Positions 4,704 through 47,741 of a stretch of 64,000 nt of DNA are shown in pieces. The stretch's first letter is position 1. Each line of letters starts with the position of its first letter. The DNA is from Trypanosoma brucei (taxonomy: Eukaryota), in the NCBI GenBank assembly GCA_000002445.1, contig CP000071.1, forward strand, positions 1,984,001-2,048,000. The letters are read 5' to 3'. Made by a program: the position numbers and the translations under genes. The notes below the pieces were generated by a model, which was not told where the DNA came from, did no database searches, and worked only from the letters and a program-made list of their open reading frames with translations.

Positions 4704-4868
4704 ATCTAAATTACTACGTTTACGAGTGCATGTGGGGAAGAAGAACAGAAAAAAATTAACGAGGAGGTGCAATAGCAAAAGCTCTTACATTCGCTTGAAT
4801 AAAATTCAAAAAAGAACATAAGCAAATCTCCGCCGAAAAAAAAAAATTCTCACCAAATGGCGAACAAT

Positions 4869-15222: not shown

Positions 15223-16518
15223 ATGGCCGAACCGTTCTCGACGATCCTTGGAACCGACGGCAGCGGTGGTCGGTGTAAATACCTGAACAAAGGGATTGTA
15301 GGATTGGGTTCCTATGGTGAAGCATATGTAGCGGAGAGCGTGGAGGATGGGTCTCTTTGTGTAGCAAAAGTCATGGATTTAAGCAAGATGTCTCAGCGGG
15401 ATAAGCGGTACGCGCAGAGCGAAATCAAGTGTCTGGCCAACTGTAATCATCCAAACATTATTCGTTACATTGAGGACCACGAGGAAAATGATCGGTTGCT
15501 TATTGTCATGGAATTCGCTGACTCAGGCAACCTTGATGAGCAAATAAAGCTTCGGGGCACAGGAGATGCGCGCTACTTTCAAGAACACGAGGCCTTGTTT
15601 CTCTTCTTACAACTGTGTCTTGCCCTTGACTACATCCACAGCCATAAGATGCTGCACCGCGATATCAAATCTGCCAATGTGCTGCTCACATCAACAGGAC
15701 TAGTTAAGCTGGGAGACTTTGGATTCAGTCATCAATATGAAGACACCGTATCAGGCGTCGTTGCAAGTACGTTCTGTGGCACACCGTACTACCTGGCACC
15801 AGAGCTGTGGAATAATAAAAGGTACAATAAGAAGGCTGATGTGTGGTCGTTGGGTGTTTTATTGTACGAAATTATGGGCATGAAGAAACCATTTTCAGCA
15901 AGTAATTTGAAAGGTTTGATGTCGAAGGTTCTTGCTGGCACATATGCTCCCTTGCCGGATAGCTTCTCGTCCGAATTTAAACGTGTTGTTGATGGTGTCC
16001 TTGTAGCGGACCCTAATGACAGACCAAGTGTAAGGGAAATTTTTCAGATACCGTACATCAATAAGGGTCTTAAATTATTTGTGCAAGCACTGAAGAAAAA
16101 CGAACGAATCTCGGACTCGGTGAAGGAGGTCCTCGTAACACAGGTCAGCGAAATCTTATCCTCGGAAGTGAGCCCTGATGCACATCGTTTCCTGGTATCA
16201 CAAATTAACTACGACGTTACACACCGAGGACATGTAAACAAACTGGGTGGTGGAAACGGGAAGTCGTGGAAACCGAGGTTTTTGCAGATTGTTCGCGGAC
16301 AGCTCATTTTAACAGATGATGAAGAAGGAAATAATCCAAAAGGCCTAAACCTTGAACAAGTGCAGGGTGCTTGCCCGGTGCCTCACAGTACTGCAAAGAG
16401 AGATTTTGTGTTTGCCCTCAATACGGTCGGCGGAAAGGGTATGTGGTTTCAGGCTGTATCACATGGGGACATGGAAATGTGGGTTCACGCGATTCAACGT
16501 GGTATAGGTGTCGCCTAA
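15223..16518 (+). CDS. NEK-family serine/threonine protein kinase with a C-terminal PH domain
   Basis: Kinase subdomains: VAKVMD, HRDIKSANVLL, DFGFS, GTPYYLAPE. The NEK-like N-terminus has an acidic-residue pattern. The C-terminal roughly 110 aa (WKPRFLQIVRGQLIL...FVFALNTVGGKGMWFQAVSHGDMEMWVHAIQ) fits the PH-domain pattern. ATG at 15223. Confidence 0.8.
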   Translation: MAEPFSTILGTDGSGGRCKYLNKGIVGLGSYGEAYVAESVEDGSLCVAKVMDLSKMSQRDKRYAQSEIKCLANCNHPNIIRYIEDHEENDRLLIVMEFADSGNLDEQIKLRGTGDARYFQEHEALFLFLQLCLALDYIHSHKMLHRDIKSANVLLTSTGLVKLGDFGFSHQYEDTVSGVVASTFCGTPYYLAPELWNNKRYNKKADVWSLGVLLYEIMGMKKPFSASNLKGLMSKVLAGTYAPLPDSFSSEFKRVVDGVLVADPNDRPSVREIFQIPYINKGLKLFVQALKKNERISDSVKEVLVTQVSEILSSEVSPDAHRFLVSQINYDVTHRGHVNKLGGGNGKSWKPRFLQIVRGQLILTDDEEGNNPKGLNLEQVQGACPVPHSTAKRDFVFALNTVGGKGMWFQAVSHGDMEMWVHAIQRGIGVA

Positions 16519-19800: not shown

Positions 19801-21238
19801 ATTTGAGGAGTATGAAAAAGAGGTTGCAGAACAAACTGTGTTGATCAATGAGAAGAAAGAGTTACTGCGAGGGGAAGTTGCAGCATTGGTGAAAGCTAAC
19901 ATGACTTCTGCGAAAGCAATAGATGATGAGATTGACGTGCTAAGAACTGACCGTATGCTAGTCGCTCAACTCGTGGACGAGCTGGAGCTACACCAGGTGA
20001 ATGCGCTGTGTCTGTTTCTACTCAAGAAAACGATCCGCAATAAGTTTCTGGGTGTCAAGCGAGAGGAGGAGGACCTTCTGTGCCGGTTGAGGCAATTGGA
20101 TAGTCTTTACGAGTACCGCCTGAAATTGTATTTGGCCTCGGAGGCGAGGGTGCAGGACTGCATTGAAGAAGAAAAGAACATGATTACGGACATGCGCTGT
20201 TTGCCCCCATTCACCGATCCGGATTGGGGAGAGAGACTGAACAGGCGCTTCACGACTTGGCGTTCCAAGTACGAGGATGGCCTGGCTAAGGTCCCGGAAC
20301 CCACTCGCTCGGGTGTGGTTCCTATTCCACTATGGGAACAGTACTGCCAGTGCTGTAGGGCAGTCGTGGAGGCAAGGGATAAAATAATTCACCTTAGAGG
20401 CGAAGCAGACGCACTCAATGATGAAGTGGTAGAGGTTGAGACGGAAAAAAAGAAAGCACAGTTTGCACTTGACGACAAGGAAAAGGCCGAGGAGGCATGT
20501 AGAAAAGAAGTCATAGAGAAGGTACTCGACATACAAAACTTGTACACGCTGCAGCAAGGACAGGTGCAGGATGAGAACGCTATGGTGAGCGATGATTTCA
20601 CCGACTTCTCCATTCGATGGGTGAAGAACATTACAGATTACAACGACCTTATCTTCGCTAGCTTTGACGAAATACGATCCCTTATGAGTCGTTCATCACA
20701 ACTTCGGCAGTCTATGAAAACATGCTCTTGGGAAACAGAACGTCTGTTATACTGCATTGGAACGCTAGAAATGGAATTACGGCAGTTGCACACATTAAGA
20801 GTGACTCGGCAGATGCAGGAGACCATCCATACCGGCGCTGTAACGTCTCTCGAAAGGGAAATAAACAAGATGGATGCACGAATCGAGGCTGTTCGAAGTG
20901 TCATGTCAAAGAAGGTTGAGGAGCGTAACCGGGTCATATCAAAGCTAAAAATGCAAATTAACGACAGACGCGCGGAGAACCAGTACCTGAACAACCAAGT
21001 CCAAGCTCTGACAAACAGCGTTGAGGATAAGAAAGCTGTATGGGGTATGCTTGGGGAACACAACAATGATAAAGATCGTCTCCGTGAGAGGATGAGGGAA
21101 CTATACGAGAATAGCGAACTTGAGGAGTTGGCTCGCTGCCAGCAAGAGGAACTTGTTCGCCTTAAAAACGAGGTAGATCGCTTGCGTGAGGCCACATTTC
21201 CCTCATTTGCTGTTGTTACGAGGAGGACCGCCAGATGA
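16856..21238 (+). CDS. Large WD40-like then coiled-coil protein (1460 aa); hypothetical, possibly flagellar CFAP43/44-like
   Basis: The N-terminal roughly 650 aa are rich in beta-strand/WD-like segments. The C-terminal roughly 800 aa are heptad-rich and E/K/L/R-rich coiled coil. This architecture and size resemble CFAP43/CFAP44, but that link rests on inference alone. Confidence 0.6.
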   Translation: MATNARILGFNSPSALVAAGDDFLLGAGGGIVIRRKEESSQWIPCEGRYAIGALAFSPSAGLLCVTEVKLDVSLHVFRFPERHHLQCIDNVATVDVQHMLFSSDGEMLALLTCIPTTCVTFYSAARGNRLVKCASTELGGVFCKHLTFPLHRHDCIAVLEPHGVRIACNMDSATFVPSILTLSSKGHYFHSCVWGTEGLYCGAGRGQVVLLDELRTDMKNCINCETPHNVTALLQNGTLLFIGTECGDVFTYNIDQKAQRLLVRLGRSVVRLLTLPDVNDVLVATSTDVTKISVDTAQSVFVRRRSASDTVKLLVLGGLVVIVCLDGSLVTYDQDTNTAVHNPVRFPEKVVDACVVDSVVVVVYDSGFVRSFTVENTVSVVSQMKVSDCPLTACTSDGVSLLAVCDKNVVHFIEVADGLLETAASSDIFACAVTNLRWAVNGGQSVLAACNNGEVHNLRFTGKCDSASAGVTVDMTWRLDFPVNDFLPLYGDGDVINVFVHSVDKDTKMYALERQRVKESKPLRPYFLMRDHECGGNVLQRLGGDSIISAGGDGRVVVRDISHYLMKLPPVPPTKEKKHPLKEFLLRPFGRGGITCLSVWNAAGGFVCGGNDSVVHLVPVGKSPIHYSWSEPFWHQRAISTSPSRASSPSDAETLSAERSRCRIISALADLRMEVEKLLQERTPTVRAEDFLLPEQRQAFNEECEVEIHKAREDDYYSLVHNEFVQHTIKTECWDVMEVQRSKIVSMTDPETEVHNFHLRKPCAQRAKIQKKIKLMRAIQIKTEECFTLSSLVKRAKEGNLCTEQQVCGPPSDVDELLYDTLDVYTGPRATIQLILLECKILHEKKSFNIRFDTLRERKSRELNLIAERNGRCVRIMQQLGEHTCPPNVLFTPVFDIEEDPQTVFEVFDSEIDPELLKLAVKSDDGELVVSPSDEAALKTWMDGLEKVTEVLRVNVPIPPFADNSLEQYVPPEERSDEQQRIFEEYEKEVAEQTVLINEKKELLRGEVAALVKANMTSAKAIDDEIDVLRTDRMLVAQLVDELELHQVNALCLFLLKKTIRNKFLGVKREEEDLLCRLRQLDSLYEYRLKLYLASEARVQDCIEEEKNMITDMRCLPPFTDPDWGERLNRRFTTWRSKYEDGLAKVPEPTRSGVVPIPLWEQYCQCCRAVVEARDKIIHLRGEADALNDEVVEVETEKKKAQFALDDKEKAEEACRKEVIEKVLDIQNLYTLQQGQVQDENAMVSDDFTDFSIRWVKNITDYNDLIFASFDEIRSLMSRSSQLRQSMKTCSWETERLLYCIGTLEMELRQLHTLRVTRQMQETIHTGAVTSLEREINKMDARIEAVRSVMSKKVEERNRVISKLKMQINDRRAENQYLNNQVQALTNSVEDKKAVWGMLGEHNNDKDRLRERMRELYENSELEELARCQQEELVRLKNEVDRLREATFPSFAVVTRRTAR

Positions 21239-23370: not shown

Positions 23371-23481
23371 GGAGTGAAATGAATGTGGTCGAGGAAGGAA
23401 ACAGCCAACTTCTGAAACAAGACGAGTGGTGTGAACCACTCCGCTTGAAGCATCATCGGGATAGTTGGGCTCAAGGGGGGT

Positions 23482-23559
23482 TCTCTTCGTGTGCTGTTCT
23501 GTACTTTTTTCTATCCTCCACATTGCATTCACTTGTTCTGGTCGTTATCACTCTTCTAG
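23482..23559 (+). promoter_or_regulatory. Polypyrimidine tract plus AG; candidate trans-splice acceptor
   Basis: ttctcttcgtgtgctgttctgtacttttttctatcctccacattgcattcacttgttctggtcgttatcactcttctAG, then gATG at 23562. Confidence 0.55.
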
Positions 23560-23561
23560 GG

Positions 23562-25598
23562 ATGCTCCGATACAACGTGTTCTACCATGGAGACTTTAAG
23601 AAAGTCCTGGTCGCCAACCGTGGAGAGATTGCATGCAGAGTATTCCGTACCTGTCGCGAAATGAACATCCGTACGGTAGCCGTTTGTTGTGAGGGTGAAC
23701 CCAACGCGAAGCACGTGTTGGAGGCCGATGAGGCATTCGTCTTGGGCCCACCCCCAGCGTCCACGTCCTATCTGCGAGGCGACCGCATCATATGCGCAGC
23801 GAAAAAACTTCAAGCTGACGCCGTGCACCCGGGCTACGGATTTCTTTCCGAAAACGCTGAGTTCGCTTCGGCGGTTTTGGCAGCGGGGCTGAAGTTTGTA
23901 GGACCACCGCCGGCCGCCATGTTGTCAATGGGCTCCAAGAGTGAGAGCAAGCGCATCATGGAAGCGGCTGGTGTGCCCATCGTGCCTGGCTACTACGGAG
24001 AAGATCAAAACCCCGATCGGCTGTTACATGAGGCCAAAACTATTGGCTTTCCGGTCCTGATCAAGGCTGTTTCCGGCGGTGGCGGAAAGGGGATGAAGAT
24101 TGTGATGGAAGAAACTGAGTTCCACCTCATGCTTGAGAGCGCCAAGCGTGAGGCCATTAACTTCTTTAAGGATGATCGCGTTATTTTGGAGCGATACGTA
24201 ATGCACCCCCGCCACATTGAATGCCAAATTTTTTTCGATAGTTTTGGCAATGGTGTTTTCTTCTTTGAGAGAGATTGCAGCGTCCAAAGGCGCCACCAGA
24301 AGGTGATTGAAGAGGCCCCGGCGCCAGGTCTCAGCGTGGACATGCGCCGCCGAATCGGCGACGTAGCTTTGACGGCAGCAAGGGCTGTCGGATACGTCGG
24401 AGCCGGTACGGTGGAGTTCATATTTGACACTGAGAAAGACGAATTTTTCTTCATGGAGATGAATACTCGCCTTCAGGTGGAACACCCGGTGACAGAGCAG
24501 GTGTGTCAGGTGAGGGGGAGGCCATTGGATCTCGTGCGGCTGCAGTTGCAAACGGCAATGGGCCTTCCTCTGGGATTCCGTCAGGAGGACATTTCTATGA
24601 GCGGAGCCAGCGTCGAGGCTCGTATTTACGCCGAATCGCCGAGGAATGGGTTCCTTCCCGTGGGTGGCCGCCTACGTTACCTTAAAGAGCCTCCCCAAGG
24701 CAACCGAGGTACTGTAAAGGTGCGCTTGGACACGGGTTTCCGTGCCGGTGACGACGTGTTAGTTCACTACGATCCTATGATCGCAAAATTGGTTGTGTGG
24801 GGTGACAACCGCGCCACCGCCCTCGAGGGTCTGCGGACGGCACTGGCTTCTTATCACATTGTGGGTGTGGAGACAAATATTGACTTTCTTCAGTGCTGCC
24901 TCTCGAACCCCGGCTTCGTCGAGGGGGGCGTGACAACTAGGTTTATTGAGGATAACAGCGTTAATTTGCTCCAACCAAGGGAAATCCCAAATAATGTTTT
25001 GGCACTAGCGGCTGTGTCGTATCTCTGCTCGCAAAGAGGCACGTCTACGTTGTTTTGGCCGAACCGCCAGATATCTCAGGGTGTCTGCTTTACTGTGGGT
25101 GGAAACCCTGTTGTCGTTCGTGTCACTGTCTCCACAAAGATGTGTTTCACCTGCGACTTTGACAGCAGTTCTGTGACAGTCTATGTTGAGAGCACGACCA
25201 ACATGCCGGATTCTTCTACCTTCATTAGGGTTACGGTGGACGGAGAAACACGGTTTGGTTTCACGTCATTTGTCACCGACAGCGAGGTAGCTGTAGCACT
25301 GCCGCAGGGTTTCTACACGTTGGCCCTGCAACCTCTGGCCACAGACTTTGGGAGTACTTCTGCTCAGGCCAACGGCTCCGCGTCCGTGCTCAGCCCTATG
25401 CCTGGGAAGGTCACAAAGCTGCTCGTTGCCGATGGTACGCTTGTGCAGCAGGGTCAGGCAATACTTATACTTGAGGCGATGAAAATGGAGCATGTTGTGA
25501 AGGCATCATGTGACGGAGAGGTGAAGTTTTGCGTTCATGCAGATGGCATAGTCGGAGGAAGCACTTTACTTGCCCATATTGCCTCTGCTGCAGTTTAA
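23562..25598 (+). CDS. Biotin-dependent carboxylase alpha subunit (3-methylcrotonoyl-CoA carboxylase alpha / propionyl-CoA carboxylase alpha type) with a biotin carboxylase domain and a C-terminal biotinyl domain
   Basis: Biotin carboxylase motifs: KVLVANRGEIACR, HPGYGFLSEN, GGGGKGM, ERDCSVQRRHQKVIEE, EMNTRLQVEHPVTE. The C-terminal biotin attachment motif is EAMKMEH. The 61 codons the track places upstream (from 23379) are hydrophobic and pyrimidine-rich and end in AG, so the start is more likely at 23562. Confidence 0.8.
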   Translation: MLRYNVFYHGDFKKVLVANRGEIACRVFRTCREMNIRTVAVCCEGEPNAKHVLEADEAFVLGPPPASTSYLRGDRIICAAKKLQADAVHPGYGFLSENAEFASAVLAAGLKFVGPPPAAMLSMGSKSESKRIMEAAGVPIVPGYYGEDQNPDRLLHEAKTIGFPVLIKAVSGGGGKGMKIVMEETEFHLMLESAKREAINFFKDDRVILERYVMHPRHIECQIFFDSFGNGVFFFERDCSVQRRHQKVIEEAPAPGLSVDMRRRIGDVALTAARAVGYVGAGTVEFIFDTEKDEFFFMEMNTRLQVEHPVTEQVCQVRGRPLDLVRLQLQTAMGLPLGFRQEDISMSGASVEARIYAESPRNGFLPVGGRLRYLKEPPQGNRGTVKVRLDTGFRAGDDVLVHYDPMIAKLVVWGDNRATALEGLRTALASYHIVGVETNIDFLQCCLSNPGFVEGGVTTRFIEDNSVNLLQPREIPNNVLALAAVSYLCSQRGTSTLFWPNRQISQGVCFTVGGNPVVVRVTVSTKMCFTCDFDSSSVTVYVESTTNMPDSSTFIRVTVDGETRFGFTSFVTDSEVAVALPQGFYTLALQPLATDFGSTSAQANGSASVLSPMPGKVTKLLVADGTLVQQGQAILILEAMKMEHVVKASCDGEVKFCVHADGIVGGSTLLAHIASAAV

Positions 25599-26422
25599 AG
25601 CTTAGAGGCGCTTCGACTGCAAGTTGTAGGGGCCTTCAACCGGTTTTGTTTTCCTTGCCCTGTGCAGCGCCATCCACATTGGCTCGTACAGCGCATCCAA
25701 CGAAGCTGTGAGTCTTGGTTTTGCAACTACTGTAGTTGGGGACTTGTGTTGTATTTAAAGGTTTATTTGTTTATGTGGTTGTGAGTGTGAGCAACTTAAC
25801 GAGCGGACGGATAACTCAACGATGCTAGCGGGTTGTAGTAGCCTTACCAGTGTAGTGAAGAAAAAGATGCTTGGGGGCTCGAGGGTTGCCGTGCAAAATG
25901 TGCCGCGTTATTTTCCTTCTTTTTCACTGTCGTCGCTCACCGGAAAAACTGGCAGATTGGAGGTTCCTTCGCTTGCCTCGGAGTGTGGACCCTTTATTCA
26001 TCTCTCGTTTGTAGCTTCAGATCCATTATTTTCTTTATACCTGCCTTTTTTTTTTAGTACTTGGGGGGGACGCTTATCGTATGATGGGAAGGGGGATAGC
26101 CTGCCGAGGGTTCCCGCCTTGTTAAAGCGTGTCACCATTGCTGCCTAAGGGCCAGCCGCGCAAAGCTGAATAAATGATGTTGGTCAGCTGCAGAGCGTTG
26201 AAGTGTAAGATATTTTCTGCCGGAAAGACATCCACGCGTTTCCTTCTTTCCTACTCTTTCACAAACTAGCGCTAGATCGTCACGGCCGCGGTACAGGAGG
26301 TGATTCCTTCCAGTAGTCACGTTAATTGTTGTACAGGGCCAAAGTGACGTAAAACGGTGGTAAAGGATTTAGAACATTTAAACTAGATTATTGAGGGACC
26401 GGTTTTGACTTTACGAGGGAAT

Positions 26423-28924
26423 ATGGAGGTTGACTACTCCGTGGTTGTAAGTCCGTCAACAATGGCCGATCTTAACGCCTCCCCACGGAGCTCCACAGGT
26501 GCCGCGAGCCGCTCCCGCCGTCAGAGTGTGGGGTTTAATGAGCGTACAAGTAGCCACAACTCCCGCCACAGTGGCCGTATAAGCGGGCGTTCGAGCGTTC
26601 GTGATGAGGCGCAGACTTCGCACGAGTTGCTTCGGAAGCAGCGGGTCGTCCGTTGTATGCAAATCGAACGTGAGCGCGCGGCCCGGTCGAAGATGGAAAG
26701 GGCTGAACATGATGACTGGCTGCGGTTGCGTTCTATGGAGCGGTCCGAGGTTGTTCACCGCATGACAGATGAACAGATAGTCGAGATGCTCCAGCGCGAG
26801 GCCAGGGAGATCGAGAGGGAACGACTGGAGGCGGAGGAAGCTATTCGGCGCGGGGCGGAAGAGGCTGCCGCCCGCCAGCGACTGAGAACAAGACAAAACG
26901 TGAACAACCGCAACAGCGCCAAGGTTTCACAATACGCCAAGCAGAACTCGAAGGCGTGCGAACGACTTGATCAGGCAGCAACGGAAGGCGCCGCGTCAAG
27001 CGATTGCCGACTGGAAGTTTCGGGGGAGACCAAATCAGAACCGGGACAATCGCTGATGCCACAAATGACAGAAACGGAATCATGTCGAGAGGGAGCAAGT
27101 GAATCACTATTTGCTATGGTGAAAGGGACACCAGAGTCACTGAGGATGTCAGTTGAAGCGCGCTCAACTCCGGGAGGCAAATTTACCCCCAAAGGGAGCA
27201 GGACATACGCTCAAAGGATTGGGTCTTCCGAGGCAACCAGCCCTGCGGTCACTGCAATGGCATCAGTAATTGACTCGCCGATTTCAGTAGCAGACCGTTC
27301 AAACGATATTATGGCGAGGCTTCGCCGTGCGCAGGAGGACATTGTTGCGCTGAGGGATGAAGTAAGGAACGCCAAACAGTCACAGCAGGAGGCAGAGGCA
27401 AAACTTCGAATGGAAGCCGAACGGGCAGACAATGAGGCTCAGGCGAAGCGGATGTTTGCCAAACGAGCAGACACGTACAAAGCAAGTGTGGAGGAGTTGC
27501 AGAGAAGGACAGCTGAAGTGGAGGAAGAACTGCAAACGCTGAGGCAGAGGGAGAAAAACGACCAGACGGTGCAGAAAGTAAAGGATGAACTAAAGATGGC
27601 AACGGAGCAAATTAGAGCACTTGAAGAAGAGAACAAAGATTTGAAAGACAGACAGCAGGAACTGTACAATGAGAATGCGAGGCTTTCGGCCAACGCGAGA
27701 CGGAGGGCATCTGGTATTTCGCAAAGTGAGTTACTCCCGGAATTTGACGCCGTTTCCGAGGGCGGATCAGGCGATATGAACGCTTCTGACACGGAAATGA
27801 GGAACAGAGGACAAGACAGAGAGGCTCTTGGCTCCTTTGTTGTAAAATACAACATGTTGGTCGATCAGTTCGAAGAACTTCAGAGGCAATCTGCCGAGCA
27901 GCAACTGGAACTACAGCGCATTATCTCTGAGAACAAAGAACTTAAGAACCGATCTCACGGGCAGCCCCCTGCGGCATCGAAACGCCAGCCGGTGTCCGAA
28001 GCAACCGTGAGGTCGGAAGGAACGTCCGGCGACGGAAAGGAAATCGAGCATCTGAGGTGGGAGGCGAAGAAGTACAAACAAGAGGCGATTGAAACCCGCA
28101 AGGAGCTAAAGGCGCTAAAAGAGTCTTCCGAAAACGAGATTTCATCTCTGAAGGAATGGTGTGAACGGCTGAAGGTGAAGTGCAAACGGCAGACGGATGA
28201 CATCAAGAAGTATATGTCACAAAATAAGGCTGTGGATGCAACCAAGGGTGAAACAAAAAAGAAGAGCCCAGACACCGCTGAAGATGTCGATGGAGCAAAG
28301 GCGGCATGTGCCGCGGAGGTCGGTCGGCTTCAGGATGAGATTTTGCAACTGCGTTCGCGTCTAAGCGAAAGCACAAAGAAGGAGCAGGCCGCCATTTCCC
28401 TTGCTGAGTCACTAAAAAGGGAAAAAGTCGACCCTTACAATCGTGACAAAAGGAAGGAGGAGGAACTCCAGAGGCAAGTTGATACACTTACTAGGACGGT
28501 GAAAGAGCGGCGAGAAGCGGAAGCTCGGTGGAAAGAGTCACAGCAAGCCACTGAGAATGAATTGAAGAGTCTTCTGGCGGAACTTACGGCCAGCCGCAAG
28601 ACAATAGAAAATTTAAAGCACGAAGTGAGCTCGCTGCGAGAGGAACAAGAGGCATGTACCCCTTTGAAGCAGGAGCACAGTGACGAAAATGCTGAGTTGC
28701 GGTTGACTGTCACAGCTATCAATACAGAAAATGAGGAGCTACGTGAGAAAATAGCAACTCTCCAGAAGGAGCTTGAAGAGTTGAGGCGAAGGTATATTGA
28801 TTTGGAGAGGGAAGCTGAGGAACGCAACGCCAAAGCCCAGAAGGAAATTAACGAACTCAGGCGTGAGAATGAAAACTTAAGACGTCCCCCTGCAACCAAG
28901 GTTAACAGTAAGAAATGTTGCTAG
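26423..28924 (+). CDS. Coiled-coil protein (833 aa); hypothetical
   Basis: The ORF is long and heptad-rich with E/K/R/L/Q bias from about residue 100 to the end. The track start at 26405 is TTG. The first ATG is at 26423 (MEVDYSVV). Confidence 0.55.
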   Translation: MEVDYSVVVSPSTMADLNASPRSSTGAASRSRRQSVGFNERTSSHNSRHSGRISGRSSVRDEAQTSHELLRKQRVVRCMQIERERAARSKMERAEHDDWLRLRSMERSEVVHRMTDEQIVEMLQREAREIERERLEAEEAIRRGAEEAAARQRLRTRQNVNNRNSAKVSQYAKQNSKACERLDQAATEGAASSDCRLEVSGETKSEPGQSLMPQMTETESCREGASESLFAMVKGTPESLRMSVEARSTPGGKFTPKGSRTYAQRIGSSEATSPAVTAMASVIDSPISVADRSNDIMARLRRAQEDIVALRDEVRNAKQSQQEAEAKLRMEAERADNEAQAKRMFAKRADTYKASVEELQRRTAEVEEELQTLRQREKNDQTVQKVKDELKMATEQIRALEEENKDLKDRQQELYNENARLSANARRRASGISQSELLPEFDAVSEGGSGDMNASDTEMRNRGQDREALGSFVVKYNMLVDQFEELQRQSAEQQLELQRIISENKELKNRSHGQPPAASKRQPVSEATVRSEGTSGDGKEIEHLRWEAKKYKQEAIETRKELKALKESSENEISSLKEWCERLKVKCKRQTDDIKKYMSQNKAVDATKGETKKKSPDTAEDVDGAKAACAAEVGRLQDEILQLRSRLSESTKKEQAAISLAESLKREKVDPYNRDKRKEEELQRQVDTLTRTVKERREAEARWKESQQATENELKSLLAELTASRKTIENLKHEVSSLREEQEACTPLKQEHSDENAELRLTVTAINTENEELREKIATLQKELEELRRRYIDLEREAEERNAKAQKEINELRRENENLRRPPATKVNSKKCC

Positions 28925-41208: not shown

Positions 41209-41468
41209 AGTGTTTTGTCACTTTTATGGAGTTCTGCACGTCGCAGTGAACGCCGCGATTGGCGGCAAGCTTGTTGAGATTGCTGCTGTCACCACTGTTT
41301 CCTGTGGTTTTCGAGCTTTTATCGTCTCATACTGCTTTATTTGAAATGTATATACGCATATTAGTGTCACCGTCTTATGGCATCCTTTGCTTCCCATTTT
41401 AGTTGTTTCCTCCCCCCTCGTCCAATAAACGAAATAGGTCTCCAACTCAGTTGTCTGGATCGAATACG

Positions 41469-44400
41469 ATGAAGGGCTCGACTTCCAACTCAGCTCTGTG
41501 GGTTACCGCCGACCAGCGCTCGTCCGAGCGGTTAGAAGAGAAAGACGTAGACTATAGTAAGGAGCCGCTTTTCTTCGACATCCCTCCCATACAGCAGGCG
41601 GACGCGGCGGTAAGGCCGGTAAAGTCCACAAGAGGAATTCCATGGAGGCGGATTAGGGAGTCGGGTGTGATTGCCCCAGACCTGGACCTTAAACCGCCGT
41701 CACCCATAAGAGTCGTGATTGATATCAGAGATAAAAGGGAGAGGAAGGGAAGTAAGGACGATGGGGTTTTTGCAGCACTTCCACCACGTAGTGGCTCTTT
41801 CTCCTTGAAAAGCTCACGTGACGTGCCAGGTCCACCGAAAACGGTGGAGGAGTTGTTAGGTGCCCAATGGGGTCCGCAGTGCACAGGGCGGGCATCTTCT
41901 GACAGCGAAACAGGATATGTCAGCCCAAGCCTCGTTGAGGTCGCTACCACTGCGGTGACCACCGCCGCCGGCAACAAACATGTCAACCCGCGCTTTACTG
42001 GAGACGCCTTAATTCTGAGGTCACCTCGGCAGACACGGGCGGCGCTACTTCGGCGGGAGTTCAACGCCAGAACTGCCAGAGAAAAGGTTTTGAGTGCATT
42101 TGCGCAATCGACGCCTCGCTCTTTGCCTACTAGCAAACGTCCATCCATAGACCTTAGCGAAGAATATAACGCTGTGGCCAGGAGAAGGGGCGCCTGGGTA
42201 GGGGTAAAGGGCTTTCCAGCCGCTGCAGCTACGTGTGTAGGCTCAGCGTCGTGCCTGGGGTGGCCGACGGGTCTGCCTCCCCGTGGTAAATCATCCGCGT
42301 CCCCACGAACCATGAAAAGTGCAACGTCCCTTCCCTTTGACCCACACTCTGTCATCGAAAGAAATAGAGAGTGTGATGACAAGAGGAAGGTGCAGGGCAG
42401 CTCCCCGTACTTATCAGCTGTACCATCCCCTGCTCTACGTGGCAACTGCTCGTCGAAAAAGAACACCGGCACCGCCACCAATGAGCATGTTGGCGGTCCG
42501 GCGCCACGCATTGCCAGTTGCAGTATTGCTTCATTTGATGATCATTTTTCAAGCACAAGCCCGAGAAAAGGGACGGTGAACAACGAAAACACAGGGAAGA
42601 GCCTCACTGATTGGCCAATGACGTCGGTGGCACGGCGGACCAATGTTCCATACGAACTTACCTCGTCTGTCGATAGCATTGATACGGAAGAATTCGATTA
42701 TGAAAAGTGCCTGCTGCAAAAAAACGACCACTATGCAACTCAGTCCCACGGCCACCCTGGAAAAAACCGTTGCAAACATTCCTTAGGACACGACAACGAC
42801 TCCTGTCAGCTTAATATTGTTGAAGTCTCTGATGTCACTGAAGTTGATGGGCCAACGAAGGCGGGTCAAGCAGGTCACTGCAGACATAAAATGAATCTGT
42901 CCACGGGTTCGTGTGTGCCTTTTTTTCGGGAACTGCTAGACGGGCGTGGGAAACTGCAGGATGACACCTCCAGTATTGCATTCGAGACGCTGTTAGAACC
43001 AAATGCCATTGTTGGAGCTACTCTTTCTGGTTTACAAACAGCGCGGAGGGCGGAACCGCAAACCACTAATGAGAGGCTGCGCGATGACACCTCCAGTATT
43101 GCATTCGAGACGCTGTTAGAACCAAATGCCATTGTTGGAGCTACTCCTTCTGGTTTACAAACAGCGCGGAGGGCGGAACCGCAAACCACTAATGAGAGGC
43201 TGCGCGATGACACCTCCAGTATTGCATTCGAGACGCTGTTAGAACCAAATGCCATTGTTGGAGCTACTCCTTCTGGTTTACAAACAGCCCGGAGGGCGGA
43301 ACCGCAAACCACTAATGAGAGGCTGCGCGATGACACCTCCAGTATTGCATTCGAGACACTGTTAGAACCAAATGCCATTGTTGGAGCTACTCCTTCTGGT
43401 TTACAAACAGCCCGGAGGGCGGAACCGCAAACCACTAATGAGAGGCTGCGCGATGACACCTCCAGTATTGCATTCGAGACGCTGTTAGAACCAAATGCCA
43501 TTGTTGGAGCTACTCTTTCTGGTTTACAAACAGCGCGGAGGGCGGAACCGCAAACCACTAATGAGAGGCTGCGCGATGACACCTCCAGTATTGCATTCGA
43601 GACGCTGTTAGAACCAAATGCCATTGTTGGAGCTACTCCTTCTGGTTTACAAACAGCGCGGAGGGCGGAACCGCAAACCACTAATGAGAGGCTGCGCGAT
43701 GACACCTCCAGTATTGCATTCGAGACGCTGTTAGAACCAAATGCCATTGTTGGAGCTACTCTTTCTGGTTTACAAACAGCGCGGAGGGCGGAACCGCAAA
43801 CCACTAATGAGAGGCTGCGCGATGACACCTCCAGTATTGCATTCGAGACGCTGTTAGAACCAAATGCCATTGTTGGAGCTACTCTTTCTGGTTTACAAAC
43901 AGCGCGGAGGGCGGAACCGCAAACCACTAATGAGAGGCTGCGCGATGACACCTCCAGTATTGCATTCGAGACACTGTTAGAACCAAATGCCATTGTTGGA
44001 GCTACTCCTTCTGGTTTACAAACAGCGCGGAGGGCGGAACCGCAAACCACTAATGAGAGGCTGCGCGATGACACCTCCAGTATTGCATTCGAGACGCTGT
44101 TAGAACCAAATGCCATTGTTGGAGCTACTCCTTCTGGTTTACAAACAGCGCGGAGGGCGGAACCGCAAACCACTAATGAGAGGCTGCGCGATGACACCTC
44201 CAGTATTGCATTCGAGACGCTGTTAGAACCAAATGCCATTGTTGGAGCTACTCTTTCTGGTTTACAAACAGCGCGGAGGGCGGAACCGCAAACCACTAAT
44301 GAGAGGCTGCGCGATGACACCTCCAGTATTGCATTCGAGACGCTGTTAGAACCAAATGCCATTGTTGGAGCTACTCCTTCTGGTTTACAAACAGCGCGGA

Positions 44401-46205
44401 GGGCGGAACCGCAAACCACTAATGAGAGGCTGCGCGATGACACCTCCAGTATTGCATTCGAGACACTGTTAGAACCAAATGCCATTGTTGGAGCTACTCC
44501 TTCTGGTTTACAAACAGCGCGGAGGGCGGAACCGCAAACCACTAATGAGAGGCTGCGCGATGACACCTCCAGTATTGCATTCGAGACGCTGTTAGAACCA
44601 AATGCCATTGTTGGAGCTACTCTTTCTGGTTTACAAACAGCGCGGAGGGCGGAACCGCAAACCACTAATGAGAGGCTGCGCGATGACACCTCCAGTATTG
44701 CATTCGAGACGCTGTTAGAACCAAATGCCATTGTTGGAGCTACTCCTTCTGGTTTACAAACAGCGCGGAGGGCGGAACCGCAAACCACTAATGAGAGGCT
44801 GCGCGATGACACCTCCAGTATTGCATTCGAGACACTGTTAGAACCAAATGCCATTGTTGGAGCTACTCCTTCTGGTTTACAAACAGCGCGGAGGGCGGAA
44901 CCGCAAACCACTAATGAGAGGCTGCGCGATGACACCTCCAGTATTGCATTCGAGACACTGTTAGAACCAAATGCCATTGTTGGAGCTACTCCTTCTGGTT
45001 TACAAACAGCGCGGAGGGCGGAACCGCAAACCACTAATGAGAGGCTGCGCGATGACACCTCCAGTATTGCATTCGAGACGCTGTTAGAACCAAATGCCAT
45101 TGTTGGAGCTACTCCTTCTGGTTTACAAACAGCGCGGATTATAACTGCTGATATTTCTGAAGATAGGTGCTCGTGGGTCAACTCCACTGTTTCTCTGGAG
45201 TCGCTATCGGACGCTGGCTTGGGAACGAACAACATCGTAGGGGACTTTATGACGTCCGATGTTATTGTGGACTCTTTGGGGGAGAGCCCGCAAGGAAATA
45301 GTGGTGTCAGAGATGAGGTACAGAGTGAATCGCGTGATACCTTTACTGGTGAATCAAGTCTAACACCGCGCAGTCTGAAAAGCTGCTTTGATAACGGAGA
45401 GACTGATTCGCTGCCGCCCATTTTACGCTCCGGAGCACGCTCGGTGATTGTGCCAAACTCTTCTCGCGTGAGTTTTTCTGGAGCAGGCACTAGGAAAACA
45501 TTATCCGAGGTCAGGCGTCCATCATCGGATAATGGGGACGGTTGCGTCATCTCCACTCGTTCCTCCTCCCCTCGACTGTGGACTCCATCGAAGATACGAA
45601 TTAGGGGAGAGGATATACTGGTTCCGAGGCATCATCGCACAGAAAACAAGGGGGTTAGAGTCGACTCCCCGGCGGGTCGTTCCGTTTTGTCAACATACGC
45701 TACGCTCCGCAATAGAAATTATCTGGGGCTTATGCGACGGTACTTTCTCACCTGGAAAGGGTTGGCAAAGCATTGTACGACACGAACTGCATCCACTATA
45801 GGACAATCACCCACTACCTGTGGAAGTTGTGTGGATGACTCGTCATGTGGCTTTGTTCCCACCACCGCCGTGGTAGCTTCACTTGCCGCAGCCGCAGCCG
45901 CAGCCGCCCCCACCTCCTCCAGAGCACATGGCGTCAACAACCCACACAGTGATCCCTCTAAGATACGTAATCTCACTGCGAGGAGTCTTAAGTTGCTTTT
46001 AGGTGACAACTATCACTCGGCAGATTACGTCTACAATCATTTGCGTAGGAAGCGACTTGGGCAACCAAGGTCCCACTATAGAATGGTGCCACCGGATGAA
46101 GATGATTATGTGTCATCGGGCAGCCGCCACAGGAGCATATGTTCAGCAGAAACAAGCTTTTCGTACCCGTCTGACGATGTGACCACGCCGATATCGATGG
46201 CGTGA
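41469..46205 (+). CDS. Repeat-containing protein (1579 aa) with about 17.7 tandem copies of a 41-aa unit; hypothetical
   Basis: Continuous ORF from the ATG at 41469 through the repeat array to 46205. The track start at 41403 is TTG. Repeat unit: DDTSSIAFETLLEPNAIVGAT[P/L]SGLQTARRAEPQTTNERLR. The flanks are unique and S/T/P-rich. Confidence 0.7.
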   Translation: MKGSTSNSALWVTADQRSSERLEEKDVDYSKEPLFFDIPPIQQADAAVRPVKSTRGIPWRRIRESGVIAPDLDLKPPSPIRVVIDIRDKRERKGSKDDGVFAALPPRSGSFSLKSSRDVPGPPKTVEELLGAQWGPQCTGRASSDSETGYVSPSLVEVATTAVTTAAGNKHVNPRFTGDALILRSPRQTRAALLRREFNARTAREKVLSAFAQSTPRSLPTSKRPSIDLSEEYNAVARRRGAWVGVKGFPAAAATCVGSASCLGWPTGLPPRGKSSASPRTMKSATSLPFDPHSVIERNRECDDKRKVQGSSPYLSAVPSPALRGNCSSKKNTGTATNEHVGGPAPRIASCSIASFDDHFSSTSPRKGTVNNENTGKSLTDWPMTSVARRTNVPYELTSSVDSIDTEEFDYEKCLLQKNDHYATQSHGHPGKNRCKHSLGHDNDSCQLNIVEVSDVTEVDGPTKAGQAGHCRHKMNLSTGSCVPFFRELLDGRGKLQDDTSSIAFETLLEPNAIVGATLSGLQTARRAEPQTTNERLRDDTSSIAFETLLEPNAIVGATPSGLQTARRAEPQTTNERLRDDTSSIAFETLLEPNAIVGATPSGLQTARRAEPQTTNERLRDDTSSIAFETLLEPNAIVGATPSGLQTARRAEPQTTNERLRDDTSSIAFETLLEPNAIVGATLSGLQTARRAEPQTTNERLRDDTSSIAFETLLEPNAIVGATPSGLQTARRAEPQTTNERLRDDTSSIAFETLLEPNAIVGATLSGLQTARRAEPQTTNERLRDDTSSIAFETLLEPNAIVGATLSGLQTARRAEPQTTNERLRDDTSSIAFETLLEPNAIVGATPSGLQTARRAEPQTTNERLRDDTSSIAFETLLEPNAIVGATPSGLQTARRAEPQTTNERLRDDTSSIAFETLLEPNAIVGATLSGLQTARRAEPQTTNERLRDDTSSIAFETLLEPNAIVGATPSGLQTARRAEPQTTNERLRDDTSSIAFETLLEPNAIVGATPSGLQTARRAEPQTTNERLRDDTSSIAFETLLEPNAIVGATLSGLQTARRAEPQTTNERLRDDTSSIAFETLLEPNAIVGATPSGLQTARRAEPQTTNERLRDDTSSIAFETLLEPNAIVGATPSGLQTARRAEPQTTNERLRDDTSSIAFETLLEPNAIVGATPSGLQTARRAEPQTTNERLRDDTSSIAFETLLEPNAIVGATPSGLQTARIITADISEDRCSWVNSTVSLESLSDAGLGTNNIVGDFMTSDVIVDSLGESPQGNSGVRDEVQSESRDTFTGESSLTPRSLKSCFDNGETDSLPPILRSGARSVIVPNSSRVSFSGAGTRKTLSEVRRPSSDNGDGCVISTRSSSPRLWTPSKIRIRGEDILVPRHHRTENKGVRVDSPAGRSVLSTYATLRNRNYLGLMRRYFLTWKGLAKHCTTRTASTIGQSPTTCGSCVDDSSCGFVPTTAVVASLAAAAAAAAPTSSRAHGVNNPHSDPSKIRNLTARSLKLLLGDNYHSADYVYNHLRRKRLGQPRSHYRMVPPDEDDYVSSGSRHRSICSAETSFSYPSDDVTTPISMA
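42960..45138. repeat. Tandem array of about 17.7 copies of a 123-nt unit at above 98% identity, lying within the CDS
   Basis: The period is 123 nt (a unit starts at 42960 and the next at 43083). The variants are ctc/cct (Leu/Pro), acg/aca and gcg/gcc, arranged in an irregular higher-order pattern. The array ends at 45138, where the sequence diverges into attataactg. Confidence 0.9.
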
Positions 46206-46790: not shown

Positions 46791-47741
46791 ATGTGGGAAG
46801 CCGCTTGCTTGGATGGGTCTCTCAAAGGCGTTCAACAGGAGACACTACGGTTCGAAGAAGACAGCGGTCTACATGAGCGTGATTCTCCGACCATTTGGAG
46901 CAAGAACAGCTTAAGATACCACGACACGACACAGCCATACGTGAGGGACGGAGAAGAGAAGCAACGGCAACACACCAATGTGCATTCTATTGTCCTTTCC
47001 GACTTGGACAACAGCGGCGAAGATGCTCCGCAGATGCAGCTAAATGAACATAGCGTAAACACTTCTAGGGTGTTGTTCACCTCGAGGGCAGATTTCACGT
47101 CGTTCTGTTCCGTGGAAGAGAAAAATCCAGAGAATGCAGAAGTGGCTACGAGGCGCGCGCTCACAATTCACAACAATGCCCGCCAAATTCTTCAGGCTTA
47201 CCGCGCTTTGAAGTTCACCATTGAGCAACAGGTGTACAGGCGCTACTTTTTGAAGTGGCTGCAACTCCACTGGTCGAGAGGCCCAGTTGGTGGACCCATA
47301 CAGACATCAGCAGCACTACCCTTGTGCTCCACGCCGCAGGTGGTGAAGAGACAATTGGAAGATGGTATGGAAGGTCTCCTGTGGGACACGGCATCTAAAT
47401 CAACGCCGTTGTCAGTTCCCAGTAGTATTAAATACGGATTGAGCAGCACAGGGCACAGTGGATCAAACAGGCGACAGGAGCTGCAGAGCGACGGCCAACC
47501 ATACGAAAGCACGCCACGCAACTCGCCATGGAGTGCGACAAAGGAACCTTCATGTAAGCTTGCTTATGGCGAGAAGCACAACACGCCATCTACGTCAGCC
47601 ACTCCGTCCAATAAGGACTCTTCCCTTTACTCGTGCAACGTGTCATCCATCCACCCGGACAGAGGAACACCCCAACGCGAAGAATTCCCGTGCCTTCGCC
47701 TCCCGGCGCTAGGCACGCCGCGGTCGCAGAGTGTGAACTGA
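46791..47741 (+). CDS. Hypothetical protein (316 aa), S/T-rich
   Basis: ATG ORF with a textbook polypyrimidine-AG upstream, co-oriented in the cluster. No domain recognised. Confidence 0.4.
   Translation: MWEAACLDGSLKGVQQETLRFEEDSGLHERDSPTIWSKNSLRYHDTTQPYVRDGEEKQRQHTNVHSIVLSDLDNSGEDAPQMQLNEHSVNTSRVLFTSRADFTSFCSVEEKNPENAEVATRRALTIHNNARQILQAYRALKFTIEQQVYRRYFLKWLQLHWSRGPVGGPIQTSAALPLCSTPQVVKRQLEDGMEGLLWDTASKSTPLSVPSSIKYGLSSTGHSGSNRRQELQSDGQPYESTPRNSPWSATKEPSCKLAYGEKHNTPSTSATPSNKDSSLYSCNVSSIHPDRGTPQREEFPCLRLPALGTPRSQSVN

What the first reader, a model, noticed from the sequence alone, without database searches (positions are those of the whole stretch)
42960..45138. About 17.7 near-identical tandem 123-nt (41-aa) repeats inside a 1579-aa ORF
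The unit DDTSSIAFETLLEPNAIVGAT[P/L]SGLQTARRAEPQTTNERLR repeats with above 98% nucleotide identity. Copies differ only at three or four sites (ctc/cct giving L/P, acg/aca, gcg/gcc), which implies recent expansion or concerted evolution. The array has no stop codon in the sense frame or in one antisense frame. Proteins with long, perfect, tandem amino-acid repeats are the classic immunodominant repetitive antigens of trypanosomes, but I do not recognise this particular unit. Copy number in an assembly of this kind is often collapsed or inflated.
Basis: seen in the sequence. Interest (0 to 1): 0.65.

Follow-up and report, generated by a model that had tools for sequence, protein, structure and literature searches.

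The report
Variable tandem repeat in trypanosome protein
A real, near-perfect 18-copy repeat makes up almost half of an uncharacterised Trypanosoma brucei protein (the chromosome-8 gene Tb927.8.7060); it arose only in this species, its copy number differs between assemblies, and it is an ordinary example of trypanosome repeat-bearing proteins with no evidence yet that it is an antigen.

Summary
Window 42960-45138 carries 17.7 head-to-tail copies of a 123-nt unit, 99% identical, in frame in a 1578-codon gene (ATG 41469, stop 46203-46205). Only three nucleotide sites vary between units.

The window is Trypanosoma brucei chromosome 8. The gene is the counterpart of Tb927.8.7060, placed by its paralogue, by synteny, and by peptide matches for neighbours FAZ14 and FAZ15.

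The same array, with identical boundaries, has 8.7 copies in T. b. gambiense DAL972 and 3.7 in a T. equiperdum assembly. A short-read T. equiperdum contig breaks inside it.

The chromosome-4 paralogue Tb927.4.5330 and the T. congolense orthologue keep both flanks at about 30% identity but have no repeat. The array is therefore a T. brucei-lineage gain in a fast-evolving gene (published omega 0.6).

No Pfam domain or solved relative was found. The full-length AlphaFold model is disordered (pLDDT 29). A confident beta-helix model of the repeats alone, and HMMER hits to beta-helix proteins, are most likely repeat artefacts.

The paralogue has a strongly cell-cycle-regulated Ser-Pro phosphosite in the most conserved block, and the window protein keeps that site.

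The antigen idea is untested. This is a new member of a known kind, of modest interest.

The parts
41469..46205 (+). Coding sequence of the repeat protein: 1578 aa, about 170 kDa. It is the counterpart of T. brucei Tb927.8.7060.
   Evidence: ORF and translation. It is 99% identical in the flanks to the T. b. gambiense and T. equiperdum proteins P0001 and P0002. It is paralogous to Tb927.4.5330 (P0003), whose chromosome-8 partner is Tb927.8.7060 in Jackson 2007.
41386..41437 (+). Polypyrimidine tract followed by AG, the likely trans-splice acceptor region upstream of the ATG.
   Evidence: Read directly from the sequence. Its function is inferred from the general organisation of trypanosome genes.
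41469..42959 (+). Unique N-terminal region: 497 aa, basic (pI 9.3), 34% S+T+P+G, no recognised domain.
   Evidence: No Pfam hit. Composition. It is 32% identical to Tb927.4.5330 and 31% to the T. congolense orthologue. AlphaFold pLDDT is below 50 throughout.
41970..42062 (+). Most conserved block, GNKHVNPRFTGDALILRSPRQTRAALLRREF (aa 168-198). It contains a Ser-Pro site (Ser185, nt 42021-42023).
   Evidence: Nearly invariant between the two T. brucei paralogues. The equivalent Ser187 of Tb927.4.5330 is a cell-cycle-regulated phosphosite. The serine is not conserved in T. congolense.
42960..45138 (+). In-frame array of 17.7 copies of a 123-nt (41-aa) unit: 726 aa, acidic (pI 4.6), 78 kDa, 46% of the protein.
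   Evidence: The same array with the same boundaries is found in L001 (8.7 copies) and L002 (3.7 copies).
45139..46205 (+). Unique C-terminal region: 355 aa, basic (pI 8.9), no recognised domain.
   Evidence: It is 30% identical to Tb927.4.5330 and 29% to the T. congolense orthologue.
45678..45773 (+). Conserved predicted-helical motif RSVLSTYATLRNRNYLGLMRRYFLTWKGLAKH. The RRYFxTW core is invariant in the paralogue and in T. congolense.
   Evidence: Alignments. A low-confidence helix is modelled here. There is a 30-residue similarity to the neighbouring FAZ15 protein.
46119..46181 (+). Conserved C-terminal block GSRHRSICSAETSFSYPSDDV.
   Evidence: Alignments.
42875..45556 (-). Antisense 893-aa ORF across the array. 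It is a by-product of a stop-free unit, not a gene.
   Evidence: All genes in this part of the window lie on the + strand.

Best explanation
The array is an in-frame coding minisatellite inside the T. brucei chromosome-8 gene Tb927.8.7060. That gene encodes a fast-evolving, largely disordered, non-secreted protein found only in African trypanosomes.

Shown: the gene is one of two copies left by the T. brucei-specific duplication of chromosomes 4 and 8. Only the chromosome-8 copy carries the array. The T. congolense orthologue lacks it. Array length differs between T. brucei-group assemblies while its boundaries stay fixed.

Inferred: a single 123-nt segment was amplified after the duplication. 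The array now grows, shrinks and homogenises by unequal homologous recombination or replication slippage. It inserts a variable acidic, flexible spacer of about 15-80 kDa between two basic flanks.

Inferred: the flanks carry the conserved short motifs. These are the Ser-Pro phospho-site block, the RRYFxTW helix and the C-terminal SAETSFSYPSD block. The protein's activity most likely resides in these motifs, as a cell-cycle-phosphorylated cytoplasmic adaptor, rather than in the repeats.

Inferred: the repeats are tolerated, dispensable for the ancestral function, and may add multivalent binding or epitopes.
For: Array. It is real, and all 18 copies share one reading frame.

Identity of the locus:
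- P0003 is named Tb927.4.5330 and matches both flanks, but only at about 30% identity and only at this locus.
- Jackson 2007 pairs Tb927.4.5330 with Tb927.8.7060.
- Published FAZ14 (Tb927.8.6980) and FAZ15 (Tb927.8.7070) peptides are encoded at 26480 and at 46881/47670.
- The 3-methylcrotonyl-CoA carboxylase gene lies at 23379-25598.

Lineage-specific gain:
- There is no repeat in Tb927.4.5330 or in the T. congolense IL3000 orthologue P0004.
- The duplication is specific to T. brucei.
- An exhaustive profile search of 1.84 billion proteins found no further true relatives.

Turnover:
- Copy numbers are 17.7, 8.7 and 3.7, with identical start and an identical 88-nt end unit.
- Polymorphic sites 30, 65 and 84 are shared across assemblies but occur in different mixes, and site 116 is seen only in the other two assemblies.
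- Units 11-13 and 14-16 repeat the same three-unit variant pattern.
- Flanks are 99.2% identical between assemblies.

Fast evolution: omega is 0.6 for this pair against a mean of 0.219.

Disorder and lack of domains: there is no Pfam family and no solved relative. The full-length AlphaFold model has mean pLDDT 29, with only short low-confidence helices over the conserved blocks.

Cell-cycle phosphorylation: pS187 of Tb927.4.5330 rises by log2 3.2-3.8 from early S to early G2/M, and that protein is annotated as cytoplasmic. The window protein keeps the site as RSPRQTR.
Against: - I found no direct evidence that the Tb927.8.7060 protein is expressed, and none for its location. It is absent from every supplement I could search, though several of those files were truncated.
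- Copy-number differences come from assemblies made with different technologies, so part of the spread may be collapse rather than biology.
- A charge-hydropathy calculation is borderline, not clearly disordered.
- The phospho-serine is not conserved in T. congolense.
- I could not trace the unit to any sequence in the repeat-less relatives.
Confidence: 0.7

Rival explanations
1. Repetitive B-cell antigen. On this view the array mainly matters because its many identical 41-residue epitopes draw a strong, non-protective antibody response in the infected mammal. The models are T. cruzi and Leishmania tandem-repeat antigens and T. brucei GM6, MARP, I2 and I17. This is compatible with the main explanation rather than exclusive of it.
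For: The array is large and near-perfect, with a very high Tandem Repeats Finder score. This is the feature used in published screens for trypanosomatid tandem-repeat antigens. High antigenicity of such proteins in Leishmania and Trypanosoma is reported (PMC13309793). The known T. brucei repetitive antigens are intracellular (my own knowledge), so an intracellular location does not rule this out.
Against: - There are no serological data for this protein.
- The unit string appears in no paper.
- The gene is not in the sleeping-sickness antigen-selection supplement, although only 13 kb of that text is held.
- There is no evidence of expression in bloodstream forms.
- Copy number varies between subspecies, so any diagnostic signal would vary as well.
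Confidence: 0.25
2. Folded beta-solenoid rod. On this view each 41-residue unit forms about two coils of a right-handed parallel beta-helix. The array would then be a rigid rod whose length is set by copy number, about 17 nm at 18 units if each coil rises 4.8 Å.
For: - AlphaFold2 on nine repeats gives an all-beta model with mean pLDDT 75.6 and pTM 0.77.
- The best non-orthologous hits in 1.84 billion proteins are two proteins with 46-residue double PbH1 repeats, at E 6e-8 and 6e-7.
- The unit aligns with their N-x-I...G-[IL]...P pattern well above shuffled units.
Against: - The five AlphaFold models range from pLDDT 28 to 76.
- In the full-length model with 3.7 repeats, the repeats are coil at pLDDT about 25-28.
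- Foldseek finds nothing at E<=0.001, and TM-scores are 0.06-0.2.
- Pfam Beta_helix is not matched. Meanwhile the same repeat region 'hits' unrelated families (DUF1490 at 3.8e-15, TcA_TcB_BD, Neurensin) with no individually significant stretch. This shows that whole-sequence E-values are inflated for repeats.
- The third hit is a different fold, an LVIVD propeller.
- The shuffle distribution has a heavy tail (maximum 63 against observed 62-74), and the targets were picked after the fact from the whole library.
Confidence: 0.1
3. Cytoskeleton- or flagellum-attachment-zone-associated repetitive protein. On this view the protein belongs functionally with MARP, GM6 and FAZ1. It would be targeted through the RRYFxTW helix it shares with FAZ15, with the repeats acting as a lattice-binding or spacing module.
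For: - The gene lies directly upstream of FAZ15, and FAZ14 is in the same cluster.
- There is a 30-residue similarity to FAZ15 centred on RRYFLxW: BLASTP E 6e-4 and hhalign E 5e-4.
- That pattern occurs nowhere else in the six-frame translation of the window.
- Near-perfect long repeats are typical of T. brucei cytoskeletal proteins (my own knowledge; MARP1 is listed as 'CORSET' in PMC4551316).
Against: - Gene neighbourhood carries little functional meaning in polycistronic trypanosome units.
- The hhalign probability is only 31%.
- The paralogue is annotated as cytoplasm, not FAZ.
- Tb927.8.7060 and Tb927.4.5330 are not in the TrypTag lists that I could search, whereas Tb927.8.7070 is.
- There is no sequence similarity to FAZ1, MARP or GM6 repeats. 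The Pfam FAZ1_C match has E 0.086.
Confidence: 0.12
4. Assembly artefact: the array, or its length, was created by mis-assembly.
For: Copy number differs 5-fold between assemblies. A short-read contig ends 127 nt inside the array. The exact 1578-aa product is in no public record searched.
Against: The array occurs in four independent assemblies at the same position, in the same frame and with the same partial last unit. The units within the window carry an irregular pattern of three variants, which a simple collapse or inflation of identical reads would not produce. The existence of the array is therefore secure. Only the exact number 17.7 is uncertain.
Confidence: 0.03

Closest known systems
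Tb927.4.5330 (T. brucei chromosome-4 paralogue, pair 7 of the chromosome 4/8 duplicons in Jackson 2007) and the T. congolense IL3000 orthologue (P0004)
   Same: The N- and C-terminal regions are collinear at about 30% identity. Shared blocks are PRFTGDALIL-SPRQTR-LLRRE, IERNRECDDK, EFxYEKC, NIVxVSD, RRYFxTW and HRSxCSAETSFxxPSD. None has a recognised domain. The gene sits in the duplicated chromosome segment.
   Different: Neither relative has the 41-residue repeat. The stretch that takes its place shows no significant similarity to the unit. They are 883 and 909 aa long against 1578 aa.
T. brucei repetitive cytoskeletal antigens (MARP-1/2 with 38-residue repeats, GM6 with 68-residue repeats, FAZ1, I2, I17); comparison from my own knowledge
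   Same: These are long arrays of near-identical units a few tens of residues long. They sit inside large intracellular proteins, are restricted to trypanosomes, and vary in copy number.
   Different: There is no sequence similarity. No cytoskeletal location is shown. The paralogue is annotated as cytoplasmic. No antigenicity data exist.
Trypanosomatid tandem-repeat B-cell antigens found by Tandem Repeats Finder screens (Goto and colleagues, cited in PMC13309793)
   Same: It meets the sequence criterion of a high-scoring, in-frame, near-perfect array.
   Different: The defining property, reactivity with infection sera, is untested.
Right-handed parallel beta-helix (PbH1) repeat proteins, Pfam PF13229
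   Different: The Pfam model is not matched. The period is 41 rather than 46 residues. Foldseek TM-scores are below 0.2. Both signals are of kinds known to be unreliable for perfect repeats.

Membership tests
Tb927.8.7060 / Tb927.4.5330 gene pair (T. brucei chromosome 4/8 duplicon pair 7) | Collinear similarity of both unique flanks to the named paralogue | tested here: met
   BLASTP gives N flank 32% identity (E 2e-60) and C flank 30% (E 1e-31) to P0003, which is Tb927.4.5330. tblastn places P0003 only at this locus in the window.
Tb927.8.7060 / Tb927.4.5330 gene pair (T. brucei chromosome 4/8 duplicon pair 7) | Position on chromosome 8 between Tb927.8.6970/6980 and Tb927.8.7070 | tested here: met
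   A biotin carboxylase gene (3-methylcrotonyl-CoA carboxylase) lies at 23379-25598. The FAZ14 peptide is encoded at 26480 and the FAZ15 peptides at 46881 and 47670.
Trypanosomatid tandem-repeat B-cell antigens | Large in-frame near-perfect tandem repeat | tested here: met
   Tandem Repeats Finder score 4267, 17.7 copies, 99% identity.
Trypanosomatid tandem-repeat B-cell antigens | Recognised by antibodies of infected hosts | not testable with these tools
   No serology is available. The gene is not listed in the one immunoproteomics supplement searched, and the unit string is in no paper.
Trypanosomatid tandem-repeat B-cell antigens | Protein expressed in the mammalian-stage parasite | not tested
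   Tb927.8.7060 was not found in the proteomic supplements I could search. Several of those files were truncated.
T. brucei repetitive cytoskeletal proteins (MARP, GM6, FAZ1) | Sequence relationship to their repeats or domains | tested here: not met
   Pfam FAZ1_C scores only E 0.086, below its cut-off. No such protein appears among the homology hits.
T. brucei repetitive cytoskeletal proteins (MARP, GM6, FAZ1) | Localisation to the subpellicular corset or flagellum attachment zone | not testable with these tools
   There is only indirect information. The paralogue carries the GO term cytoplasm. The neighbour FAZ15 localises to the FAZ.
Right-handed beta-helix (PbH1, Pfam PF13229) | Match to the family profile above its threshold | tested here: not met
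   There is no Beta_helix hit for the 726-aa array at E<=0.1, while P0005 and P0006 score 7.6e-153 and 1.4e-96 against that family.
Right-handed beta-helix (PbH1, Pfam PF13229) | Beta-helix three-dimensional fold | tested here: inconclusive
Sfi1-type centrin-binding repeat (consensus A-x7-L-L-x3-F/L-x2-W-K/R, recalled from memory) | Match to the consensus or to the Pfam Sfi1 model | tested here: inconclusive
   LGLMRRYFLTWK fits the L-L-x3-F-x2-W-K core by eye, and the core is conserved in the relatives. It is a single copy, and no Pfam Sfi1 hit appears at E<=1.

The most novel reading that the evidence does not exclude
The 41-residue units might truly fold into a beta-helical rod, or another regular structure, whose length is set by copy number. 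The protein, anchored through its conserved RRYFxTW helix (shared with the adjacent FAZ15) and switched by S-to-G2/M Ser-Pro phosphorylation, would then act as a strain-variable spacer or ruler in the trypanosome division or flagellum-attachment machinery. That would be a newly evolved structural protein, born after a species-specific chromosome duplication.
Probability: 0.08. Interest if true: 0.55.

Novelty: new member of a known kind. Interest (0 to 1): 0.3.

Why it matters
In itself the finding is modest. Trypanosome genomes hold many proteins with long, near-perfect repeats, and this one sits in an annotated but unstudied gene. It still has three uses.

First, it is a clean, dated case of a coding minisatellite gained by one copy of a duplicated gene. 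The chromosome-4 copy and T. congolense serve as repeat-less controls. This makes it a good system for asking what repeat gain does to a protein.

Second, the copy number differs between T. brucei subspecies assemblies. The array is a candidate strain-typing marker, and a warning for anyone using the reference gene model.

Third, if the 41-mer is antigenic it would be a T. brucei-group-specific serological target, because T. congolense lacks it.

The side observations give the first functional leads for an orphan family. These are the cell-cycle-regulated phosphosite in the paralogue and the motif shared with FAZ15.

Tried and rejected
1. Origin of the unit. Smith-Waterman alignment of the unit against the chromosome-4 paralogue and the T. 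congolense orthologue scored no better than shuffled units. This held for the whole proteins and for the homologous central segment alone: 589/1000, 1579/2000 and 1055/5000 shuffles reached the observed score. The suggestive 'DSTVAFEN' in T. congolense cannot be claimed.

2. Beta-helix homology. HMMER hits P0005-P0007 were set aside. They touch only the repeat part and belong to two different folds. The same array also gives 'significant' whole-sequence E-values to unrelated Pfam families, with no significant single stretch.

3. AlphaFold2 beta-helix model. It is not trusted, because of the documented artefact, the spread between the five models, and the disordered full-length model.

4. More distant orthologues in T. 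cruzi or Leishmania. None was found by the word-indexed searches with the collapsed protein, the three-species profile or the C-terminal profile, nor by the exhaustive profile search.

5. Pfam and PDB sequence searches of the flanks found nothing.

6. Literature and supplement searches for Tb927.8.7060 found only Jackson 2007.

7. The charge-hydropathy plot was borderline and uninformative.

8. Antisense ORF 42875-45556. Rejected as a gene, because it follows automatically from a unit that is stop-free in that frame.

9. No tRNA or Rfam family was found in the window.
Full report
**1. The observation**

Tandem Repeats Finder reports one array at 42960-45138. It has period 123, 17.7 copies, 99% matches, no indels and score 4267. 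It is the only sizeable tandem array in the 64-kb window.

Cut into units, it has 17 full copies and an 88-nt final partial copy. Only three positions vary:
- position 30 G/A (ACG/ACA, synonymous)
- position 65 C/T (CCT/CTT, Pro/Leu)
- position 84 G/C (GCG/GCC, synonymous)

No unit differs from the consensus at more than two bases.

The array is in frame with an ORF whose first ATG is at 41469 and whose stop is at 46203-46205. That gives 1578 residues. The ATG follows a polypyrimidine tract and an AG, as expected for a trans-spliced trypanosome gene.

The unit is stop-free in the sense frame and in one antisense frame. This alone explains the 893-aa antisense ORF.

The array encodes 726 acidic residues (pI 4.6, 78 kDa), which is 46% of the protein. 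It lies between two basic flanks with pI 9.3 and 8.9.

**2. Organism and gene**

I searched with a copy of the protein collapsed to one unit. It found three proteins, all from the T. brucei group:
- a T. b. gambiense DAL972 protein of 1209 aa
- a T. equiperdum protein of 1004 aa
- Tb927.4.5330 of T. b. brucei TREU927, 883 aa

The first two are 99% identical in both flanks and carry the same repeat. Tb927.4.5330 is about 30% identical across both flanks and has no repeat. In the window it maps only to this locus.

Jackson 2007 (PMC2212663) lists Tb927.4.5330 and Tb927.8.7060 as pair 7 of the 0.5-Mb chromosome 4/8 duplicons. The paper singles the pair out as extremely diverged.

The neighbours fit chromosome 8:
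- a biotin carboxylase (Tb927.8.6970) lies at 23379-25598
- the published FAZ14 (Tb927.8.6980) phosphopeptide is encoded at 26480
- both published FAZ15 (Tb927.8.7070) phosphopeptides are encoded in the 316-aa ORF just downstream, at 46881 and 47670

The gene layout is typical of a trypanosome. It shows a strand switch near 11-15 kb, followed by a long + strand gene run. The exact 1578-aa product is in no record I could query, so I cannot name the strain.

**3. Evolution of the array**

The same array starts at the same codon and ends with the same 88-nt partial unit in two other assemblies. It has 8.7 copies in DAL972 and 3.7 in T. equiperdum GCA_003543875.1.

The variable sites 30, 65 and 84 recur there in different proportions. 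A fourth site (116, Arg/Lys) is common in those two arrays and absent from the window. Each array has therefore been homogenised towards a different mix of shared variants. That is concerted evolution with copy-number change.

Within the window, units 11-13 and 14-16 show the same three-unit variant pattern. This suggests a 369-nt multi-unit duplication.

A T. equiperdum OVI contig begins 127 nt before the end of the array. It is 100% identical to the window for the next 1.5 kb. That short-read assembly therefore broke at the array. The flanks differ by only about 0.8% between the window and DAL972.

An exhaustive profile search of 1.84 billion representative proteins added one true relative. 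It is a 909-aa T. congolense IL3000 protein. It keeps the conserved blocks of both flanks and has no repeat.

The duplication is specific to T. brucei. It follows that the array was gained in the chromosome-8 copy after the T. brucei/T. congolense split, before the diversification of the T. brucei group. Less simply, it could have been lost from the chromosome-4 copy.

I could not trace the unit to the corresponding segment of either repeat-less relative. The pair evolves fast, with omega 0.6 against a duplicon mean of 0.219.

**4. What the protein looks like**

The flanks, the paralogue and the T. congolense protein match no Pfam family. The family profile matches no solved structure.

AlphaFold2 on the full T. 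equiperdum protein, using the four-sequence alignment, gives mean pLDDT 29. It shows only a few low-confidence helices, and these coincide with the conserved blocks.

The blocks conserved between paralogues are:
- GNxHxxPRFTGDALILxSPRQTRAxLLRRE
- IERNRECDDK
- EFxYEKC
- NIVxVSD
- RRYFxTWK
- GSxHRSxCSAETSFSxPSD at the C-terminus

A simple charge-hydropathy calculation is borderline. I read the protein as mostly disordered, with short linear motifs. This is an inference from low pLDDT and composition.

**5. The beta-helix question**

I do not accept this as evidence of a fold, for these reasons:
- The five models range from pLDDT 28 to 76.
- In the full-length model the repeats are coil.
- Foldseek finds nothing significant, and TM-scores are below 0.2.
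- Pfam's Beta_helix model is not matched. The same array nonetheless gives E 3.8e-15 to DUF1490, and small E-values to other unrelated families, with no individually significant stretch. This shows how repeats inflate whole-sequence scores.
- The third HMMER hit is a propeller repeat, which is a different fold.
- The shuffle test has a heavy tail, and its targets were selected after the fact.

A folded rod remains possible at roughly one chance in ten.

**6. Functional leads**

The supplementary tables of Benz and Urbaniak 2019 (PMC6907760) report phospho-Ser187 of Tb927.4.5330. The site lies in the peptide NHITPRFTGDALILGSPRQTRAALLRREYTA. Relative to early G1, its log2 values are -0.42 in late G1, 3.16 in early S, 3.69 in late S, 3.76 in early G2/M and 0.59 in late G2/M. 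The protein carries the GO term cytoplasm.

This Ser-Pro site sits in the most conserved block. The window protein keeps it as ALILRSPRQTR, with Ser185. The Gly-to-Arg change puts the serine in the tryptic tripeptide SPR. That could explain why it is not seen by standard phosphoproteomics, which is an inference. T. congolense lacks the serine.

Separately, the RRYFLTWK helix region shows a 30-residue similarity to FAZ15, the next gene. BLASTP gives E 6e-4, and hhalign gives E 5e-4 with probability 31%. The pattern RR[YFC]F..W occurs only at these two places in all six frames of the window. FAZ15 is a polo-like-kinase-dependent phosphoprotein of the flagellum attachment zone. This is a lead, not a demonstrated relationship.

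I found no statement about Tb927.8.7060 itself in any paper or supplement other than Jackson 2007.

**7. Interpretation**

The best-supported account is a coding minisatellite. It was gained by one duplicate of an orphan, fast-evolving, disordered cytoplasmic phosphoprotein. It is maintained and resized by unequal recombination or slippage. It is tolerated as a variable acidic spacer, while the conserved flank motifs carry the ancestral function.

The antigen reading is plausible by analogy but untested. It is not exclusive of the above. A cytoskeletal or FAZ role and a folded solenoid are minority readings. Mis-assembly cannot explain the existence of the array, but the figure 17.7 needs long-read confirmation.

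**8. Comparison and verdict**

The feature belongs to a well-known kind, the near-perfect long tandem repeats in trypanosomatid proteins. Its unit is not related to any described one. The gene is annotated in public genomes, but I found no description of the repeat. I rate it a new member of a known kind, of modest interest (0.3). The main open points are expression, location, antigenicity and whether the repeats fold.

Noticed in passing
window 46791-47741 (+) and 45678-45773 (+): The 316-aa ORF just downstream is FAZ15 (Tb927.8.7070); published phosphopeptides match exactly. It shares a 30-residue motif centred on RRYFLxW with the C-terminal region of the repeat protein. That pattern occurs nowhere else in the six-frame translation of the window. 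The core loosely fits the Sfi1-type centrin-binding consensus, which I recall from memory.
   Followed up: partly
window 26405-28924 (+): This ORF encodes the published FAZ14 (Tb927.8.6980) phosphopeptide SPRSSTGAASRSRRQSVGFNERTSSHNSRHS at nt 26480, and its predicted mass is 95.7 kDa. Two flagellum-attachment-zone genes, FAZ14 and FAZ15, therefore lie within 21 kb of each other and flank the repeat gene's neighbourhood.
   Followed up: partly
window 41970-42062 (+), Ser185 at 42021-42023: The equivalent serine of the paralogue Tb927.4.5330 (pS187) is one of the more strongly cell-cycle-regulated phosphosites in procyclic T. brucei, at about 18-fold, high from early S to early G2/M. In the chromosome-8 protein a Gly-to-Arg change places the site in the tryptic tripeptide SPR, which is probably invisible to standard phosphoproteomics.
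   Followed up: partly
L003 1-127 (T. equiperdum OVI contig CZPT02000954.1): The contig starts 127 nt before the end of the array, and the gene model there is a 318-aa C-terminal fragment. The short-read assembly broke at the repeat. The next 1.5 kb are 100% identical to the window.
   Followed up: yes
window 44190-44927 (units 11-16): Units 11-13 and 14-16 carry the same ordered variant pattern at sites 30/65/84 (GTG, GCG, ACG). This suggests a recent 369-nt three-unit duplication inside the array.
   Followed up: no
window about 10800-15200: This is a divergent strand-switch region. ORFs over 250 aa lie on the - strand before it and on the + strand after it, and the GC-skew sign flips there. 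It is probably a polycistron transcription start region.
   Followed up: no
window 45867-45914 (+): A poly-alanine tract (AVVASLAAAAAAAAPT) in the C-terminal region is shared with the T. congolense orthologue (AAAAAAAC) but is reduced in the chromosome-4 paralogue. In the three-way alignment the chromosome-8 copy is closer to T. congolense (31% identity) than the chromosome-4 copy is (23%), although it is the copy that gained the repeat.
   Followed up: no
window 16856-21238 (+), 15223-16518 (+), 2193-4778 (-): Other recognisable genes in the window are a CFAP43 flagellar protein (1460 aa), a protein kinase with a C-terminal PH domain (431 aa), and an 861-aa protein with IQ calmodulin-binding motifs.
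   Followed up: no
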